DNA of 23,030 bases from a virus: UHGV virus genome UHGV-0139916. One strand, written 5' to 3'. The translations under genes and the position numbers were made by a program. Positions 17,079 to 22,980 of the stretch are shown piece by piece. The number at the start of each line of letters is the position of its first letter. The first letter of the stretch is position 1. The notes below the pieces were generated by a model that was not told the DNA's origin, did no database searches, and was given only the letters and a program-made list of their open reading frames with translations.

Positions 17079-17573
17079 TTATTTTATAGTTTTTATGAAT
17101 TCTTTATTAAATCCCTTCGCTTCTCCGGGGTATCTTCCGAAGACAATTTTTATAAAAACAGAAAAAATAAAGATAGCAAAGCTTAACAACAATTGCAGTA
17201 TCATTGGAACCCAAAGAACTACAGGCTCTATATTCATGAAACCAAATATTCTTCCGGCGATCATGGCGAAGTACCACACTGTTATCAGCAAACTTAGTGG
17301 CATATGAATTACTGATATTACCAATCCAAGAGCATCAGTAATTCTGTTTTCAAATTTTTCAGGGGAAAACTTTTCTTTAAGGTAATTCAGTGCGCAGGCC
17401 TCATTCTCTGGATTTTCAGCATTTTTCCCTATAGCAATAGAAATCTCAGATATCCTTGATTCAATTCTTTTACGTTTAATAAAACTAGAAAAAAAGAACC
17501 ACGCAATCTGCAACCCTATCCCCAGAAATAGAGTTGCGGCAACTAGCACAGCGTAACTCATAGAATCAGACAC
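17079..17573 (-). CDS. AT-rich integral membrane protein (about 160-164 aa, 3 predicted TM helices); candidate superinfection-exclusion protein at the P22 sieA position
   Basis: Minus-strand ORF. AAGGAGG lies 5 nt upstream of an in-frame GTG (plus 17571-17573); ATG at 17561 is the alternative start. Three hydrophobic segments ([21 protein letters not shown]; [26 protein letters not shown]; [28 protein letters not shown]). The SieA analogy is positional only. Confidence 0.6.
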
Positions 17574-17603
17574 ACCAACCTCCTTAGTTTTGCGCAGGAT
17601 ACC

Positions 17604-17969
17604 ATGAAAAAAGTTAACATTGGAAACGTACCAAAGATGCTCGTTCCGCTCTTTGAGAGCGGTACAATTGTGTTTTGTAGAGACTTTCCAGAATGGCAAC
17701 GCCTGCATCAAAAACTTGGCGTTGACGTGCATGACTCGGACGCCAACGGAGCGTCTCATACAATGAGTAGCGAGAATGGTGTTTTGCATGTGATAGGCGT
17801 GTTCAATGGCAAACTATCTACTATTGCCCATGAGTGCGCTCACATGGCATTCGATATCTGCTCAAGGGTAGGTGTTGATGTTGAACCAGGAAGAGCCAAC
17901 GAGACTTACTGCTACTTAATGAGCAGGCTTGTTGAGTTCTGCGAGCGACATATCAAAAAGCCGGAGTGA
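17604..17969 (+). CDS. hypothetical protein (121 aa) with an HExxH motif ([11 protein letters not shown]); possible small zincin-like metalloprotein
   Basis: ORF divergent from the membrane protein, weak AGGA RBS. The single HECAH motif is followed by acidic residues. No family confidently recognised. Confidence 0.5.
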
Positions 17970-18254: not shown

Positions 18255-18275
18255 CCACCGTCAGGTGGTTTTTTT
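18255..18275 (+). terminator. plus-strand intrinsic terminator embedded in the 3' codons of mnt
   Basis: CCACC-GTCA-GGTGG followed by seven T on the plus strand. The same bases encode ...KKTT-stop of Mnt on the minus strand. Confidence 0.45.
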
Positions 18276-18512
18276 GTACAAATCCTTCAGCGTATCAAAC
18301 ACCATCTTCTTAACAAGTTCGGACTGCTCATCAGCGATGCGTTCTGCATCGTCTCGATAGCCTGAAATTTTGGATGGCCTTGATACAGCATCAGTCACTA
18401 TCTGAACTAATTCTGAATTAAGAGAGCAGCCATTGGATTTGGCTCGCTGTTTTAGTTTTTCCTTTAATTCGTAAGGTAGCCGCAGATTAAATTGCGGGTC
18501 ATCTCTTCCCAT
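18261..18512 (-). CDS. mnt: Mnt repressor (ribbon-helix-helix, Arc/MetJ fold), 83 aa
   Basis: MGRDDPQFNLRLPYELKEKLKQRAKSNGCSLNSELVQIVTDAVSRPSKISGYRDDAERIADEQSELVKKMVFDTLKDLYKKTT is near-identical in length and sequence to P22 Mnt as recalled (same C-terminal AERLADEQSELVKKMVFDTLKDLYKKTT). Confidence 0.9.
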   Translation of the reverse strand: MGRDDPQFNLRLPYELKEKLKQRAKSNGCSLNSELVQIVTDAVSRPSKISGYRDDAERIADEQSELVKKMVFDTLKDLYKKTT

Positions 18513-18577
18513 TCTTGATGCCTCGCTCTTGTGAGTGGATCGGCATCTTATTATCTGCTGGTTGCATCCTCAATAAT

Positions 18578-18588
18578 ACCACGGTGGT
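18578..18588. promoter_or_regulatory. Mnt-operator-like palindrome ACCAC-G-GTGGT in the mnt/tailspike intergenic region
   Basis: An 11-bp sequence with perfect 5-bp inverted arms, about 70 bp upstream of the mnt start. Its CCACGGTGG core matches what I recall of the P22 mnt operator. Confidence 0.4.
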
Positions 18589-18931
18589 CGTATTTTTTGA
18601 TTGATAATGAATCACTGCGGCGATTCCTTGTATTTGGAGCAAATTAAATGACAGATATTATAAATAGGAATTGTTATTTAATAATGTTTGAAAATAAAAA
18701 TCATGGACGATAGGAATAAAGGTAGTACTTGTTTTTATTTTTGTAAGTGACGCATTAAGCGCATAAATAATATGCCTGTTGATCAAGATTCTTGAGTATT
18801 GTAAAATAATCGTTTTGTTCATGTTGCATGGTTTTTAAATGAATAGAAGGTTATTTTTCAAAACAATTGCATCTTTGTCTGCAGTCATTCCGTTTTCTTC
18901 AATATCTAAATCTTCAAACAGGATGACTAAT

Positions 18932-21430
18932 ATGCCTAATATAACTCCAAATGTTGTGATAGGTATGCCGTCGCAACTCTTCACAATGGCTAGTTCTTTT
19001 AAAACCGTAGCAAATGGAAAAATTTATATCGGTAAGATTGACACAGATCCGCTAAATCCAGAAAACCAGATTCCAGTATATCTGGAACGAGAAGATGGTA
19101 CTTATGTTCAGGTGCCACAGCCAATCGTTATCAATGCTGCTGGATACCCGGTATACAACGGACAGATTTCCAAGTTCGTAACTGTGCAAGGTCATTCTAT
19201 GGCTGTTTATGATGCGTATGGAGCGCAGCAGTTCTATTTTCCTAACGTACTGAAGTATGACCCGGATCAGCTACGGCAGCAATTAGAAGACCCGGATGGT
19301 GCTAAAAAATATTCCGAATTGCAGATTGCACGATGGCGTGATGAAACAGATCCACGTGGCTGGGGAGCAAAAGGTGATGGCATTGCGGATGATACACAGG
19401 CATTTGAACAACTGGAAGATTATGTTACGTCTATGGTTGTTGATATGCGAGGTAAAACTTATTTTACCTCCAGAACGTTTTTCAGGAATACCTATATTAA
19501 CGGGAAATGGTTGGTTGGAGGGAAAGTCATTCCTGTTAATGGTGAACTAGTTACAAGCAAGCGACCTGCATGGGACATTAATGCCATTGGACATGAGTCT
19601 AATGCCGCTATACGGTTTATACCAATTGCTAATGGTCGCGGACAGATAAGAACATTGCAAACTTTTGCATATGATCCTGTAAGCAGAGCTTATTATTCCA
19701 ATCACAATACAGAAATAGATGGAAACCCTACTACTGTTTCTGTCTGGAATAAATATTCTGCTGATTCAAAAATTAAAAATACATCTTCTGATTTTATGCT
19801 TCCTGAGGACAGGCTGGGTCATCAGGGAATAGCGGTACAGAATATAGATAATACGATTAAGTTATGGACTACAGCACCAGATACACCGGCAGGCTCTACT
19901 GCCCATACTGACTTTGATTTTTCTGTAGGTGGTTCACATGGGGTTGTTAGATTTTCCTGGAGGAGCAACTCCGAGGGGGAAATAGATTCTCCTGAAATGT
20001 TTAGGGTTGTAGAAGGAAATCGTACAGCGGGTAGTTCAACTACTCCGACTATTACATTAGACGGAAAATGGATGATTATCCGTTTCACCGACAATGGCGA
20101 ATACAATAAGCAAACGTTTCGTGTATTTTCCACTGATATTTTTGATAAACCCGGTGATTATTCCGCCCTGTGTACTCATGAGTTTACTCTTCAACTTTCA
20201 CAAGTCGGTGGTGATGAAACAACATCACTTAATGGATTTTGTTCTGATGGAGCACATCTGTATATGTATTGTGGAAATACTAAGTTTGGGCAGACTCAAT
20301 ATTTATCAAGTTGTGATCTGTTGGGGAATGATGTGCAGAAAGCCATTTCTAATTTGGGTGATACGGATTTACCTAGAATTATTGGCTCTACCCCTACCTT
20401 CCGCGAGTCAGAAGGGATGCATTTTGTTGATTACGATGGCGTTCTTTATCCATCGGTAACAATAGTATCTGAACATTCTGATGTTATGGGGGCAACCAGA
20501 CGTACCATTCTGATTTATGCGCTTGGTGCAGGAGATAAAAGAACGCTATCTCTACCATCTAAAGAAATATGTATCTCTGATAATCCAGAGGCGGTTCCTC
20601 ATGTAATTTATTCAGATAATACAACCTGGGAACAAAACTCACCTATAAAAGCACTAAAGTTCAACAACGAGCAAGGAACCGGTTTGCTTTATGAATGGCA
20701 GAGAAAAGGCGTTGGTTATTTTCAGATGTATATGAGTACCTCTAATGTAGCATTAATGGCTGCGAATGGGGCTGATTTACATCTAGGAAGTAATAATGTC
20801 TGGAGATGGAAAGTAAGTCCAAATGGTCACTGGCATCCTTATCTGGATAATTCTTACAGTGTTGGTGTACCAGATAACAGGCCAACTCAGATTTATGCTG
20901 TTTCAGGCTCAATAAACACCTCAGATGGTAGGGAAAAAAGCGACCCGCTAACAACGAGTGAACTCAGTCTGAATATGTCCCCTGGTTATGAAGGTGATGC
21001 AATTTTGGATGCATGGGGAGATATCAGGATCGTAGCTTTTCGCTGGCTTGAGGCTATCAGGGAAAAGGGAGATGGTGCCCGCTGGCATTTTGGTGTCATA
21101 GCACAACAGGTGCGAGATGCTTTCCTCGCTCATGGGATTGATGGGACCCGGTTTGGCCTTCTCTGTTACGATGAATGGGATGATAAATACGAGCCAGTGA
21201 TGGCGGTCAGGACGATTACTGAAGTTGTGGATGGTGTCGAAATTGAGAAGGAAGAAGAATACGAAACAGAAGAGCGAACTCTGGTACGCAAGGCCGGAAA
21301 TAGGTGGGGTATCCGTGCTGACCAGTGCTTATGGCTTGAGTCTGCTTATTTGCGTAGAAGAATCGAAAAAATAGAGTCACGTCTTGCAGCGATTGAAAAA
21401 AAACTTTTTGACAATGAATGCAAATTATAA
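18932..21430 (+). CDS. tailspike (832 aa): P22 gp9-type head-binding N-terminus, AT-rich beta-helix-type receptor-binding/glycanase domain, C-terminal intramolecular chaperone (S74-type) domain
   Basis: From ATG 18932, [50 protein letters not shown]...[13 protein letters not shown]...NVLKYDPDQ aligns with the P22 gp9 head-binding domain as recalled. [15 protein letters not shown] motif typical of pectate-lyase-like beta-helix proteins follows. SDGREK at 20921-20938 matches the endosialidase-type autocleavage motif. Confidence 0.9.
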
Positions 21431-21573
21431 TTCACAGGCAGGGGCGCATATATGTTAAAATATGGTTTGTAACTTGATTTGTTAGATAAGATATGGCTAT
21501 TGATAGTTTTAATTATATCCCATATGGGATGACTACTTTTTACTTTTAATACGAGTGTTTTATCTCTGTATGA

Positions 21574-21615
21574 ACATCGCCATGTTGGATAGTTGATCGT
21601 TCAACATGGCGATGT
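21574..21615. terminator. 14-bp perfect inverted repeat between convergent tailspike and glycosyltransferase genes (candidate bidirectional terminator)
   Basis: ACATCGCCATGTTG (21574-21587), a 14-nt loop, then CAACATGGCGATGT (21602-21615), lying between the two convergent stop codons. Confidence 0.45.
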
Positions 21616-21659: not shown

Positions 21660-22793
21660 TTATTTGTTAAGAGCTAAGACATCTTTTCTGAAATTTTCAT
21701 GATCTCCATCCAGAAGAAATTGTGCAAGGGATTTGAATTTGTTATAAATCAAGTCAAAATTAATAAGGTCTGAATGTGCAGCTAATGACTTATACATCAT
21801 TTTGAAAAAAAATCTTTTATCATTGTCTGGCACTTTTTTGTTTTTTTCAATGGCAGCTAGATGTTCAATGCAAATAACAACCCAAGCACTAAACATCTTT
21901 ACTTTTTCATTGGTTTGTTTTTTGGATATTAAAATGTAATTTAATCCGCATTGTAAAACAAAAATTCTATTTTCTACTGGGAAACTAACTTTAGAAAGAT
22001 GTTGTTGATCGTGCCCGTTAAGAATATAATACTCCTTATCTGATAAAACTGAAACTGTATTAGATACGGTTAATGCATGACATGAAAAAATCATGTCTTC
22101 GTAAACAGGTATTGATGGGTTGAATAAAACCCCATTATTAATAAGCAATTCTCGCTTAAATAACTTGAAAATTTTCAGTGATCTGAATAAATGATTTTTG
22201 ATAATATCTGCTTTGTTAGCATTTTTTCTGAATGCCCGCACGGGTACTCCTCGCCCTGTAGATGATGCTTGCTTAAAATATACAATATCGCTATTATTTT
22301 TATCTGCAATATGCAGCCCATCATAAAGTAACTCTGAATGAATTGCATCATCTGAATCTAGAAAGAAAACATAACGTCCTTTGGCTGCTTTTATTCCTTC
22401 ATTGCGTGGAGCTGAAGCATTTCCGGAGGGGATTTCCCTGCGAATTACACGCCGGTTTATATCCGGTGCAATAAAATACTCAATTGCTGCAACACTTTTA
22501 TCTGTTGAACCATCATCAATAAAAATCACTTCAAATCTGTTTTTATCTAGCGTTTGTGAATTAATAGACTTAATACATTCAATAATTAAGTTTTCTCTGT
22601 TATGAACAGGTATTATAATTGAAATGTCAAACTTATTATTTGAATCAATAGTATGTATAACATTTTTTATTTTATATAAGGCTGAATGGATGGCTATATC
22701 TAAAATAGCTTCAGATATAATGTTTTCTTTTTTAATGTTGCCTTTTATGTTAAAATATAAACAATTAGTACGAAGAACAAAATCCACGCTCAT
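21660..22793 (-). CDS. family-2 (GT-A) glycosyltransferase (377 aa from ATG 22793), AT-rich
   Basis: Motifs SIIIPVHNRENLIIECIKSINSQT, FIDDGSTDKS and FFLDSDD (DXD-type). No C-terminal TM segments, so not GtrB-like. The ATG abuts a tetranucleotide repeat and there is no Shine-Dalgarno sequence. Confidence 0.85.
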   Translation of the reverse strand: MSVDFVLRTNCLYFNIKGNIKKENIISEAILDIAIHSALYKIKNVIHTIDSNNKFDISIIIPVHNRENLIIECIKSINSQTLDKNRFEVIFIDDGSTDKSVAAIEYFIAPDINRRVIRREIPSGNASAPRNEGIKAAKGRYVFFLDSDDAIHSELLYDGLHIADKNNSDIVYFKQASSTGRGVPVRAFRKNANKADIIKNHLFRSLKIFKLFKRELLINNGVLFNPSIPVYEDMIFSCHALTVSNTVSVLSDKEYYILNGHDQQHLSKVSFPVENRIFVLQCGLNYILISKKQTNEKVKMFSAWVVICIEHLAAIEKNKKVPDNDKRFFFKMMYKSLAAHSDLINFDLIYNKFKSLAQFLLDGDHENFRKDVLALNK

Positions 22794-22980
22794 GGCTGGC
22801 TGGCTGGCTGGCTGGCCGGCTGGCTGTGAAATCTAATGCAAATTTTACCCCTTTATATTCGAAGTCAATAACGAAGCAGTTCTCATTGTATAACCATGTT
22901 TTTTTTATGTGATCACGCAGTGTTGTTTTCTCAAAGAACTCAACTATATTTTCAGAAATAGCAGTAATATCAGTTTTCAT
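22765..22980 (-). CDS. 5' reading-frame segment (71 aa) that runs through the repeat tract and stops 9 codons later; probable out-of-frame N-terminal part of the glycosyltransferase gene
   Basis: ATG at 22980 with GAGGT 6 nt upstream. Translation ...DFTASRPASQPASHERGFCSSY, where ASRPASQPAS is encoded by the repeat. Its frame is offset from the glycosyltransferase ORF so that removing one 4-nt unit would fuse them. Confidence 0.4.
   Translation of the reverse strand: MKTDITAISENIVEFFEKTTLRDHIKKTWLYNENCFVIDFEYKGVKFALDFTASRPASQPASHERGFCSSY
22794..22825. repeat. tetranucleotide repeat tract (GGCT)5-GGCC-(GGCT)2 on the plus strand, i.e. (AGCC)n on the coding strand
   Basis: Direct reading of 22794-22825: eight tandem 4-nt units, one of them a GGCC variant, ending immediately 5' of the glycosyltransferase ATG on the minus strand. 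Confidence 0.95.

What the first reader, a model, noticed from the sequence alone, without database searches (positions are those of the whole stretch)
18932..21430. Three-part mosaic tailspike with self-cleaving chaperone domain
Only the first 110 or so residues match the P22 gp9 head-binding domain, ending at the conserved KYDPDQ (19250-19270). Base composition then turns visibly AT-rich and the sequence carries a [14 protein letters not shown] motif typical of pectate-lyase-like beta-helix depolymerases. The last 169 residues begin with SDGREK (20921-20938), the autocleavage motif of endosialidase-type intramolecular chaperone domains. The receptor-binding module looks horizontally acquired and its glycan target is unknown. 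It is adjacent to a possibly phase-variable glycosyltransferase, which suggests a coupled receptor/modification cassette.
Basis: partly seen in the sequence, partly recalled or inferred. Interest (0 to 1): 0.6.

Follow-up and report, generated by a model that had tools for sequence, protein, structure and literature searches.

The report
Propeller tailspike with switchable sugar-transferase partner
This E. coli prophage tailspike is a three-part mosaic as first described, but its receptor-binding core is a five-bladed propeller related to the teichoic-acid-binding proteins of Staphylococcus phages, not a beta-helix, and it sits beside an on/off-switchable sugar transferase, so the pair probably reads and rewrites one surface polysaccharide.

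Summary
CDS 18932-21430 (832 aa) has a P22-type head-binding domain (residues 1-113), a foreign central module, and a Peptidase_S74 self-cleaving chaperone domain starting at S664 (SDGREK).

The beta-helix reading does not hold. A high-confidence AlphaFold model shows a five-bladed beta-propeller. Its closest solved structures, by fold and by sequence profile, are the wall-teichoic-acid-binding proteins of S. aureus phages phi11, 80alpha and P68. The GAKGDG motif is only a shared N-terminal cap.

The module is rare and mobile. About eight protein clusters carry it, on four different anchor types.

The downstream GT2 resembles S. aureus TarS/TarP (34-36% identity). An (AGCC)8 tract splits it from its own 52-codon leader. 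The same tract has 5 to 70 units in relatives and is recorded as hypervariable in E. coli B.

The layout copies prophage CUS-3 (endosialidase tailspike plus phase-variable neuO).

The one complete E. coli genome with this tailspike carries a rare capsule locus with a TagF-like polymerase, a CDP-ribitol synthase and a repeat-free copy of this GT. I therefore propose a ribitol-phosphate, teichoic-acid-like capsule as the target (about 45% likely). Two counter-examples keep this a hypothesis.

This is a new variant of a known kind.

The parts
18932..21430 (+). Tailspike CDS, 832 aa plus stop. The ORF is open from 18839, and an alternative ATG lies at 18923.
   Evidence: The start was chosen by alignment to Sf6 and P22 tailspike N-termini and the position of the ribosome-binding site.
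18932..19270 (+). P22-type head-binding (virion-anchor) domain, residues 1-113, ending in KYDPDQ
   Evidence: Pfam PF09008, E 8e-61, 1-113/113. Sf6 gp14 E 1e-57 and P22 gp9 E 1e-45.
19271..19408 (+). Neck or linker, residues 114-159, containing [14 protein letters not shown] (19364-19405). This is a generic N-terminal cap shared with beta-helix spikes and endosialidases.
   Evidence: Profile hits to Sf6 and CBA120 spikes, polygalacturonase and endosialidase N-termini cover this stretch only. Pfam End_N_terminal matches 146-180 weakly.
19409..19588 (+). Small N-terminal beta subdomain before the propeller, residues 160-219
   Evidence: AlphaFold model mbcb1ecfbdade, model residues 1-60, pLDDT 88-97.
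19604..20524 (+). Five-bladed beta-propeller receptor-binding module, residues about 225-531, of the Phage_RBD_prop type. Family-invariant residues include Q243, H297-Q298 (GHQG), D439, E492 and E494.
20546..20677 (+). Low-confidence linker, residues 539-582
   Evidence: pLDDT below 50 in the model.
20678..20920 (+). Beta-rich stalk, residues 583-663, leading up to the cleavage site
   Evidence: Model strands. Pfam End_tail_spike C-terminal end matches 631-663. Matches to T5 pb1 and endoNF stalks.
20921..21427 (+). Intramolecular chaperone / self-cleaving domain (Peptidase_S74), residues 664-832. Predicted cleavage is at S664 (20921-20923), with K669 (20936-20938) as the partner residue.
   Evidence: Pfam PF13884, 42.8 bits. 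3gw6 E 4e-36, with S664 and K669 aligned to positions 911 and 916. The DNA exchange boundary lies at nt 1975 of the gene.
21574..21615 (.). Perfect 14-nt inverted repeat between the convergent tailspike and GT genes, likely a two-way terminator hairpin
   Evidence: A further terminator-like hairpin lies at 21516-21531.
21660..22793 (-). GT2 glycosyltransferase body (377 aa), TarS/TarP-like, GC about 29%
   Evidence: Pfam PF00535, E 7e-31. TarS (5tze) E 2e-38 and TarP (6h1j) E 1e-33, at 34-36% identity.
22794..22825 (-). Tetranucleotide tract (AGCC)2 GGCC (AGCC)5, 8 units, between the leader and the GT body. This count puts the leader out of frame with the body.
   Evidence: The tract has 5-70 units in relatives and is called hypervariable in REL606.
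22826..22980 (-). 52-codon N-terminal leader of the GT (ATG at 22980). It joins the body only with 7 or 10 repeat units.
   Evidence: Frame simulation. In the repeat-free homologue of strain AF16, leader and body form one 442-aa protein.

Best explanation
The window is the late end of a CUS-3-like, P22-family prophage of E. coli. Its tailspike is assembled from three exchangeable modules.

1. Residues 1-113 dock the trimer onto the virion.
2. Residues about 160-535 form a five-bladed beta-propeller, presented three times per spike, that recognises the host surface polymer. This module is homologous to the platform domain with which Staphylococcus phages phi11, 80alpha and P68 bind glycosylated ribitol-phosphate wall teichoic acid.
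3. Residues 664-832 are an endosialidase-type intramolecular chaperone. It folds the stalk and then cuts itself off at S664, using K669.

Directly downstream and convergent lies a cytoplasmic TarS/TarP-like GT2. Its reading frame is set by an (AGCC)n tract between a 52-codon leader and the catalytic body. The present 8 units give the OFF frame, and 7 or 10 units give a 438-442 aa ON protein.

My inference is that the two genes form a cassette of the CUS-3 siaK1/neuO kind: the spike reads a surface polysaccharide and the GT reversibly alters the same polysaccharide in lysogens. The most likely substrate is a teichoic-acid-like, ribitol-phosphate group 2 (kps) capsule.

Shown here: domain identities, the fold, the mosaic boundaries, the frame logic and the repeat variability. 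Inferred: autocleavage, trimer geometry, the target polymer, and whether the propeller only binds or also cleaves.

The confidence of 0.6 is for the whole statement. The architecture and the repeat switch alone are about 0.9, the functional coupling of the two genes about 0.6, and the ribitol-phosphate capsule target about 0.45.
For: Architecture:
- Pfam and PDB sequence hits identify the head-binding and S74 domains.
- The model has pLDDT 85.8 and pTM 0.81 and shows five blades.
- The top fold hits are phi11 Gp45, 80alpha RBP, P68 fibre and NF5 RBP. Generic propellers score clearly lower.
- The family profile reaches the same proteins at E 2e-15 to 8e-10, and 50 of 65 relatives match PF21311.
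- Among predicted viral structures the top hit is the Bacillus phage GA-1 neck appendage.

Mobility of the module:
- It is 80% identical in DNA to Pollock gp76, and it occurs behind four kinds of anchor.

Cassette:
- Virion genes are 96% identical to CUS-3 and phiv205-1.
- CUS-3 has an endosialidase spike followed by neuO with 19 copies of AAGACTC.
- The frame simulation gives the ON and OFF states.
- The tract has 5, 7, 8, 34, 45, 47 and 70 units in near-identical loci, and the gene is annotated as fused or split accordingly.
- The Lenski long-term evolution experiment (LTEE) excludes this tract in REL606 as 'hypervariable'.
- All three prophage types that carry this GT (the window, the P22-like prophage of strain C and GMF054, and the P2-like prophage of E. 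coli B) have propeller-family receptor-binding proteins ending in S74 domains.
- Strain C and GMF054 share the same GT2 protein next to their tailspikes, in prophages at two different chromosomal sites.

Target:
- The GT is closest to TarS and TarP.
- Only 1 of 5426 complete E. coli genomes (AST215) carries this spike.
- AST215 also has one of only two kps loci that encode a TagF-like protein, a CDP-ribitol synthase and a homologue of this GT. That homologue is 82% identical in DNA (AST215) and 77% in protein (the intact AF16 copy), and it has no repeat tract.
- E. coli B and strain C also have a kps locus with TagF-like and CDP-ribitol synthase genes.
- At least 19 of the 30 genomes with the GT leader have that kps type, against 51 of 5426 overall.
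Against: - No experiment on this protein exists, and cleavage and binding are inferred from homology.
- The host of the window is unknown, so its capsule type cannot be checked.
- The 19/30 association is dominated by E. coli B derivatives and perhaps one clade, so it is not phylogenetically independent.
- Two genomes with related GT cassettes have non-ribitol kps loci. GMF054 has a Kdo-type locus. FDAARGOS_1276 has a locus with GT2s, a sugar dehydrogenase, a pyruvyl transferase and a sulfotransferase.
- A distant propeller tailspike (P0011 type, 44 genomes) shows almost no association with the ribitol-type locus, with 3 of 44 overlapping. The fold alone therefore does not fix the target.
- Most P22-family spikes target O-antigen.
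- Pfam PF21311 scores 20-21.7 bits on this protein alone, below the 23.7-bit cut-off.
- The 8-unit tract carries one GGCC interruption and may come from a short-read assembly.
Confidence: 0.6

Rival explanations
1. One reading: the central module is a pectate-lyase-like right-handed beta-helix depolymerase, signalled by the GAKGDG..DDT motif.
For: The motif and about 40 flanking residues match the N-terminal caps of beta-helix proteins such as the Sf6 and CBA120 spikes, polygalacturonases and the phi29 appendage. Some proteins that share only this stretch carry PF12708.
Against: The same stretch matches endosialidase N-termini, which precede a propeller. No beta-helix family covers residues 180-630. 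The model is a five-bladed propeller at pLDDT above 90. All top fold matches are propellers.
Confidence: 0.03
2. The architecture is the same, but the target is the O-antigen of LPS rather than a capsule. The GT2 would add a side-branch to the lipid-linked O-unit in the cytoplasm. This is classic lysogenic O-antigen conversion, as in P22, Sf6 and HK620-type phages.
For: Most P22-family spikes cut O-antigen (own knowledge). Cytoplasmic GT2 enzymes commonly build O-unit side branches. GMF054 and FDAARGOS_1276 carry related cassettes without a ribitol-type kps locus. The P0011-type propeller spike is spread over hosts with other kps types.
Against: A repeat-free homologue of the GT is built into kps region 2 in two unrelated isolates, beside a tail-fibre-assembly gene fragment. 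The only complete genome with this spike has that rare kps type. The closest relatives of both proteins act on ribitol-phosphate polymers. The closest phage relative, CUS-3, is capsule-specific.
Confidence: 0.3
3. The propeller is an enzyme, either a phosphodiesterase or a glycosidase, that depolymerises the polymer as the endosialidase propeller does, and not a pure binding module like phi11 Gp45.
Against: No activity has been shown for any member. The closest solved relatives are described as binders.
Confidence: 0.35
4. The adjacency is incidental. The GT is a decaying, frameshifted moron with no functional link to the spike.
For: In the window the leader and body are out of frame. The AST215 prophage has the same spike with no GT beside it. 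The kps copy in AST215 has a stop at codon 18.
Against: The body ORF is intact, and restoring the frame needs only one unit fewer or two units more. In-frame copies are annotated in several strains. The same leader and tract accompany three different GT bodies, each next to a propeller-type receptor-binding protein, in P22-like and P2-like prophages.
Confidence: 0.1

Closest known systems
Prophage CUS-3 of E. coli K1 (endosialidase tailspike siaK1 plus phase-variable O-acetyltransferase neuO)
   Same: Both are P22-family prophages, and the virion genes are 96% identical. Both spikes combine a head-binding domain, a propeller-type capsule module and an S74 chaperone. In both, the next gene is a surface-polysaccharide-modifying enzyme with a simple-sequence repeat in its 5' coding region, lying between the spike and the integrase end.
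   Different: The propeller here has five blades and is of the Phage_RBD_prop type, not the six-bladed endosialidase type. The modifier is a GT2, not an acetyltransferase. The repeat unit is AGCC (4 nt), not AAGACTC (7 nt). The GT is convergent with the spike. The target is not polysialic acid.
S. aureus phage phi11 receptor-binding protein Gp45 (PDB 5efv), with 80alpha gp61 and the P68 tail fibre
   Different: Only about 16% of residues are identical. The Staphylococcus proteins have a coiled-coil stem and 'tower' domains and no S74 domain. They belong to Gram-positive sipho- and podoviruses. Ligand binding by the E. coli protein is untested.
S. aureus wall-teichoic-acid glycosyltransferases TarS and prophage-encoded TarP
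   Same: They are the best solved relatives of the neighbouring GT2, at E 2e-38 and 1e-33 and 34-36% identity over about 205 residues. They are cytoplasmic enzymes that decorate a polyol-phosphate polymer before it is exported by an ABC transporter. TarP, like this gene, is carried on a prophage (own knowledge).
   Different: The C-terminal parts differ. This gene has a 52-residue leader and a repeat switch that TarS and TarP lack. Neither donor nor acceptor is known here.
Endosialidase intramolecular chaperone domain (endoNF, PDB 3gw6; Pfam Peptidase_S74)
   Same: E 4e-36 over residues 635-824. S664 and K669 align with the cleavage serine and lysine, and the preceding stalk motif is shared.
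   Different: The domain is attached to a different receptor module. Cleavage was not tested.
Tailspike gp76 of the N4-like Escherichia phage Pollock
   Same: The propeller, stalk and chaperone are the same, at 80% DNA identity over nt 350-2454 and 74% protein identity over the shared region.
   Different: The N-terminal anchor is N4-type, making the protein 1085 aa. The phage is lytic, no neighbouring GT is present, and the protein is also uncharacterised.

Membership tests
P22-type tailspike (Pfam Head_binding PF09008) | N-terminal head-binding domain of about 110 residues ending in the KYDPDQ region | tested here: met
   Residues 1-113 match positions 1-113 of 113, 203.7 bits against a cut-off of 24. 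Sf6 and P22 structures align over residues 1-117/128.
Peptidase_S74 / intramolecular chaperone auto-processing domain | Sequence match to the domain above the curated threshold | tested here: met
   42.8 bits against a cut-off of 22, starting at residue 664. 3gw6 E 4e-36 and GA-1 3gud E 3.5e-20.
Peptidase_S74 / intramolecular chaperone auto-processing domain | Cleavage serine with a lysine five residues downstream (S911/K916 in endoNF) | tested here: met
   'tSDGREKs' aligns with 'tANGERKt' of 3gw6. The alanine in that crystal form stands at the serine position (own knowledge that 3gw6 is the S911A mutant).
Peptidase_S74 / intramolecular chaperone auto-processing domain | Autocatalytic release of the C-terminal domain after trimer folding | not testable with these tools
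   Needs protein expression and SDS-PAGE or mass spectrometry.
Pectate-lyase-like beta-helix depolymerase (PF12708 / PF13229) | Right-handed parallel beta-helix body | tested here: not met
   No such Pfam hit. Only the cap of about 40 residues matches. The model is a propeller.
Phage_RBD_prop (PF21311), five-bladed propeller receptor-binding platform | Pfam match above the gathering score | tested here: inconclusive
   20.0-21.7 bits against a cut-off of 23.7 for this protein alone. 50 of 65 relatives found by exhaustive HMMER match at E up to 7e-17.
Phage_RBD_prop (PF21311), five-bladed propeller receptor-binding platform | Five four-stranded blades, and closest structural neighbours within the family | tested here: met
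Phage_RBD_prop (PF21311), five-bladed propeller receptor-binding platform | Binding of a glycosylated teichoic-acid-type polymer | not testable with these tools
   Indirect only: the kps type of the one host genome.
Endosialidase (GH58) | Six-bladed sialidase propeller with an inserted beta-barrel (PF12217 / PF12195) | tested here: not met
   Only the N-terminal extension and the stalk end match weakly. Sialidases rank far below phi11 Gp45 in the fold searches.
CUS-3-type mobile contingency locus | P22-family prophage with the spike gene followed by a polysaccharide-modifying gene that carries a repeat in its 5' coding region | tested here: met
CUS-3-type mobile contingency locus | Repeat number varies between closely related strains and changes the reading frame | tested here: met
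   5-70 units, with fused and split annotations among E. coli B derivatives. Recorded as hypervariable in the LTEE.
CUS-3-type mobile contingency locus | The modifier acts on the polymer that the spike recognises | not testable with these tools
   Circumstantial only, with counter-examples.
TarS/TarP-like teichoic-acid glycosyltransferase | GT2 (GT-A) catalytic domain closest to TarS/TarP | tested here: met
   PF00535 E 7e-31. TarS 2e-38 and TarP 1e-33, with the next unrelated GT2 enzymes at 1e-15.
TarS/TarP-like teichoic-acid glycosyltransferase | Polyol-phosphate polymer as acceptor | not testable with these tools
   Needs biochemistry.

The most novel reading that the evidence does not exclude
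E. coli prophages carry a Gram-negative counterpart of the staphylococcal teichoic-acid system.

- A spike with a phi11-Gp45-type propeller recognises, and perhaps cleaves, a ribitol-phosphate, teichoic-acid-like K capsule.
- A TarS/TarP-like transferase, switched on and off by a hypermutable (AGCC)n tract, glycosylates that capsule in lysogens.
- The switch would toggle K serotype and phage susceptibility. It would also explain some K-type differences that have been attributed to genes outside the kps locus.
Probability: 0.4. Interest if true: 0.75.

Novelty: new variant of a known kind. Interest (0 to 1): 0.55.

Why it matters
Modular tailspikes and self-cleaving chaperone domains are routine. 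Three things here are not.

1. A receptor module thought of as Gram-positive, the phi11/P68-type propeller, turns up on P22-like, T7-like, N4-like and P2-like coliphages. This gives a testable lead on phage receptors for the teichoic-acid-like E. coli capsules. I found no phage depolymerase or receptor-binding protein listed for those capsules.

2. The partner GT is a clear simple-repeat contingency gene in E. coli, a species where this mechanism is considered rare. The same tract is present in the laboratory strain E. coli B, where it has been treated only as a sequencing nuisance.

3. A repeat-free copy of the GT, fixed inside a capsule locus next to a phage gene fragment, suggests that capsule loci pick up phage-borne modifiers. 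That is relevant to in-silico K typing, which currently cannot explain some serotype pairs.

Tried and rejected
- The first structure prediction used only 9 close homologues and gave pLDDT 46.9, which was unusable. It was replaced by a 65-sequence alignment drawn from the exhaustive search.
- Single-sequence and shallow-profile searches of PDB sequences found nothing for residues 180-620.
- The GT region has no match in the phage collection, even in distant mode.
- I tested whether every host of the GT cassette has a ribitol-type kps locus. That was rejected as a universal rule, because GMF054 and FDAARGOS_1276 do not.
- I tested whether a distant propeller spike family (P0011 type) tracks the same kps type. 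It does not, so I do not claim that the fold predicts the target.
- The neighbourhood of P0002, a 92% identical module on a different phage, has no GT.
- Literature searches found no description of this spike family, of phage receptors for E. coli ribitol- or glycerol-phosphate capsules, or of this GT switch.
- The upstream extension of the ORF (18839) was rejected as the start, because homologues begin at the MPNIT/MTDIT position.
Full report
**Observation**

The region holds one long ORF (18839-21430). The biologically sensible start is ATG 18932. From there the product (832 aa) begins [20 protein letters not shown], which aligns residue for residue with the N-termini of the Sf6 and P22 tailspikes, and an AGGA lies 9 nt upstream.

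- KYDPDQ at 19253-19270
- [14 protein letters not shown] at 19364-19405
- SDGREK at 20921-20938, followed by the last 169 residues

Pfam gives Head_binding over residues 1-113 (E 8e-61) and Peptidase_S74 starting at residue 664 (42.8 bits against a cut-off of 22).

The composition shift exists but is small. GC is 41.9%, 39.8% and 46.5% for the three parts, and GC3 is 37%, 29% and 40%.

DNA comparisons draw the same three-part picture independently. The first 339-465 nt are 90-94% identical to other E. coli P22-like spikes. Nt 350-2454 are 80% identical to gp76 of the N4-like phage Pollock. Nt 1975-2467 are about 90% identical to tail-fibre genes of some 400 E. coli genomes. Only one of 5426 complete E. 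coli genomes, AST215, has the whole gene, at 98.7%.

**The central module is not a beta-helix**

No beta-helix or pectate-lyase family matches the protein. Its weak Pfam hits pointed elsewhere: End_N_terminal (146-180), Phage_RBD_prop (337-497) and the end of End_tail_spike (631-663).

A profile of close homologues matched solved structures only in the GAKGDG stretch. There it matched beta-helix proteins and endosialidases equally. The motif is therefore a generic N-terminal cap and does not identify a fold.

Close homologues of the module are few. About eight 90%-identity clusters cover it fully, and they carry different N-terminal anchors: P22 head-binding, T7-type Tail_spike_N, N4-type, and a prophage fibre N-terminus.

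A first AlphaFold run on that shallow alignment failed, with pLDDT 46.9. An exhaustive HMMER scan of 1.84 billion representatives then found 90 distant relatives at 20-40% identity. Fifty of the 65 that I aligned match Pfam PF21311, the 'phage 5-bladed beta-propeller receptor binding platform'.

With that alignment the model reached pLDDT 85.8 and pTM 0.81. It contains:
- a small beta subdomain (residues 160-219)
- five four-stranded blades (about 225-531)
- a disordered linker (539-582)
- a beta stalk (583-663)

The family profile reaches the same proteins by sequence alone: P68 2e-15, Gp45 4.5e-12, 80alpha 2e-11, NF5 8e-10. Among predicted viral structures the best match is the neck appendage of Bacillus phage GA-1.

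In phi11 this propeller is the platform proposed to hold the GlcNAc of ribitol-phosphate wall teichoic acid (PMC4901313).

**The C-terminal domain**

Residues 635-824 match the endoNF chaperone domain at E 4e-36. 'SDGREK' aligns with the cleavage-site segment, S664 and K669 falling at positions 911 and 916. The same domain in the T5 pb1 fibre, GA-1 and other spikes also matches. Self-cleavage is therefore the expected behaviour, but it has not been shown.

**Context**

The virion genes upstream are 96% identical to the K1-specific P22-like phages CUS-3 and phiv205-1. Between gp16 and the spike lie a SieA-family ORF and mnt.

Downstream and convergent lies a GT2 gene (21660-22793) with only about 29% GC. 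A perfect 14-nt inverted repeat separates it from the spike gene.

**The glycosyltransferase switch**

Immediately 5' of the GT's ATG is the tract (AGCC)2 GGCC (AGCC)5. Beyond it lies a 52-codon ORF starting at 22980, which reads through the tract out of frame with the GT. Removing one unit or adding two fuses the two ORFs into a 438 or 442 aa protein.

The leader is a genuine part of the enzyme. In strain AF16 a homologue with no tract encodes leader and body as one 442-aa protein, 77% identical to the fused form here.

The tract length differs widely among near-identical loci:

| Locus | AGCC units |
|---|---|
| Metagenome contig carrying the identical spike | 5 |
| REL606 | 7 |
| This window | 8 |
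| B-RalR (E. coli B derivative) | 34 |
| B-DolR (E. coli B derivative) | 45 |
| Strain C (CP029371) | 47 |
| GMF054 | 70 |

The gene is annotated as fused or split accordingly. An LTEE preprint (10.1101/249110) explicitly ignores 'the hypervariable 7xCCAG repeat at 2103891-2103918' of REL606, which is this same tract. The phase-variation suggestion is therefore well supported. The window copy is in the OFF frame.

**Coupling of spike and transferase**

CUS-3 has the same layout: an endosialidase spike, then neuO with 19 copies of a heptanucleotide in its 5' end, then the integrase.

An HMM built from the propeller family also hits the receptor-binding proteins next to the other GT loci of this type:
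- the P22-like spike of strain C, E 1e-79
- the P2-like fibre of E. coli B, E 9e-19
- the second Pollock spike, gp75, E 1e-17

The strain C spike and the E. coli B fibre, which sit beside GT loci, also end in an S74 domain. Strain C and GMF054 share the same GT2 protein beside their tailspikes, in prophages at two different chromosomal sites. The leader and tract are 99% conserved between the window and strain C, although the GT bodies differ.

**What the pair acts on**

This part is inference. The evidence in favour of a capsule is as follows.

- The GT's best solved relatives, by a wide margin, are S. aureus TarS (2e-38) and the prophage-encoded TarP (1e-33), at 34-36% identity over about 205 residues. 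Both enzymes glycosylate poly-ribitol-phosphate.
- AST215, the single complete genome with this spike, has a group 2 capsule locus whose variable region encodes a CDP-ribitol synthase (IspD plus SDR), two proteins without Pfam hits, and a homologue of this GT next to a tail-fibre-assembly gene fragment. One of the two unassigned proteins is annotated as TagF-like in AF16.
- That kps type occurs in only 2 of 5426 genomes.
- E. coli B has a kps locus with a TagF-like gene and a CDP-ribitol synthase split by IS1.
- The E. coli B kps type is found in 51 of 5426 genomes, including strain C. At least 19 of the 30 genomes that carry the GT leader are among those 51.

Two kinds of evidence count against this.

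- Many of those 19 genomes are E. coli B derivatives, so the count is not independent. GMF054 and FDAARGOS_1276 carry related cassettes but have quite different kps loci. A distant propeller spike present in 44 genomes overlaps with the ribitol type in only 3.
- The host of the window is unknown.

I therefore give the teichoic-acid-like capsule about 45% and an O-antigen target about 30%. I leave open whether the propeller only binds or also cleaves.

**Comparison with what is known, and verdict**

The spike is a member of the P22 head-binding and S74 families by tested criteria. It is not a beta-helix depolymerase and not an endosialidase. By profile and fold it belongs to the Phage_RBD_prop family, although its single-sequence Pfam score falls just short of the cut-off.

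The system works like the CUS-3 siaK1/neuO contingency locus, with a different receptor module, a different modifier and a different repeat. I found no paper that describes this spike family, this GT switch, or phage receptor proteins for E. coli polyol-phosphate capsules.

The mosaic itself is ordinary. The propeller's kinship with Gram-positive phage receptor proteins and the repeat-switched TarS-like partner make it a new variant of a known kind, of moderate interest.

Noticed in passing
window 22794-22825 (minus strand); also L003 9742-9769, L005, L006, L007, L011, L016: An (AGCC)n tract lies inside the 5' coding region of a prophage GT2 and ranges from 5 to 70 units across E. coli loci. 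It is the 'hypervariable 7xCCAG repeat' that LTEE analyses of REL606 discard. AGCC is also the repeat unit of the Haemophilus and Neisseria modA switches. In-frame tracts would encode (SQPA)n.
   Followed up: yes
L008 6570-7898 (AF16) and L004 7946-9142 (AST215): A repeat-free homologue of the GT sits inside kps region 2, next to a 100-130 nt tail-fibre-assembly gene fragment, as if a phage-borne modifier had been captured by the capsule locus. The AST215 copy has a stop at codon 18, and the AF16 copy is intact (442 aa).
   Followed up: partly
window 17079-17789 (minus strand): A low-GC (about 35%) 236-aa membrane-protein ORF between gp16 and mnt. The identical gene on metagenome contigs is tagged PF26849 (SieA, superinfection exclusion). 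My Pfam copy gave no hit.
   Followed up: partly
window 18261-18931: mnt (Arc/Mnt family, minus strand) is present, but there is no arc or ant gene before the spike, unlike CUS-3, strain C and AST215. A 419-nt AT-rich spacer with one promoter-like site (18779-18807) precedes the spike.
   Followed up: no
window 21574-21587 / 21602-21615: A perfect 14-nt inverted repeat in the gap between the convergent spike and GT genes. A second terminator-like hairpin lies at 21516-21531.
   Followed up: no
L016-L021 (metagenome and Logan contigs with the identical spike): About 20 short-read contigs carry sieA-mnt-spike-GT, and most end inside or just before the GT leader. This is what a long or heterogeneous repeat would do to an assembly. 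The window itself ends 50 nt beyond the leader ATG.
   Followed up: partly
L002 3886-7143 and 7205-10045 (phage Pollock): Both Pollock tailspikes, gp76 and gp75, contain propeller-family modules, so this lytic N4-like phage carries two different receptor modules of the same fold.
   Followed up: partly
L009 35552-41779 (REL606 kps region 2): E. coli B carries a ribitol-type group 2 capsule locus whose CDP-ribitol synthase is split by IS1. Intact versions, 99.9-100% identical, occur in about 18 non-B genomes, for example O7:H4 strain MIN14.
   Followed up: partly
L010 7001-9400 (CP088722) and 44 complete genomes: A distant propeller-type P22-like spike (799 aa, no S74 domain) is fairly common in E. 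coli, including LF82, NRG857C and the probiotic strain A0 34/86. Its target is unknown and does not track the ribitol-type kps locus.
   Followed up: partly
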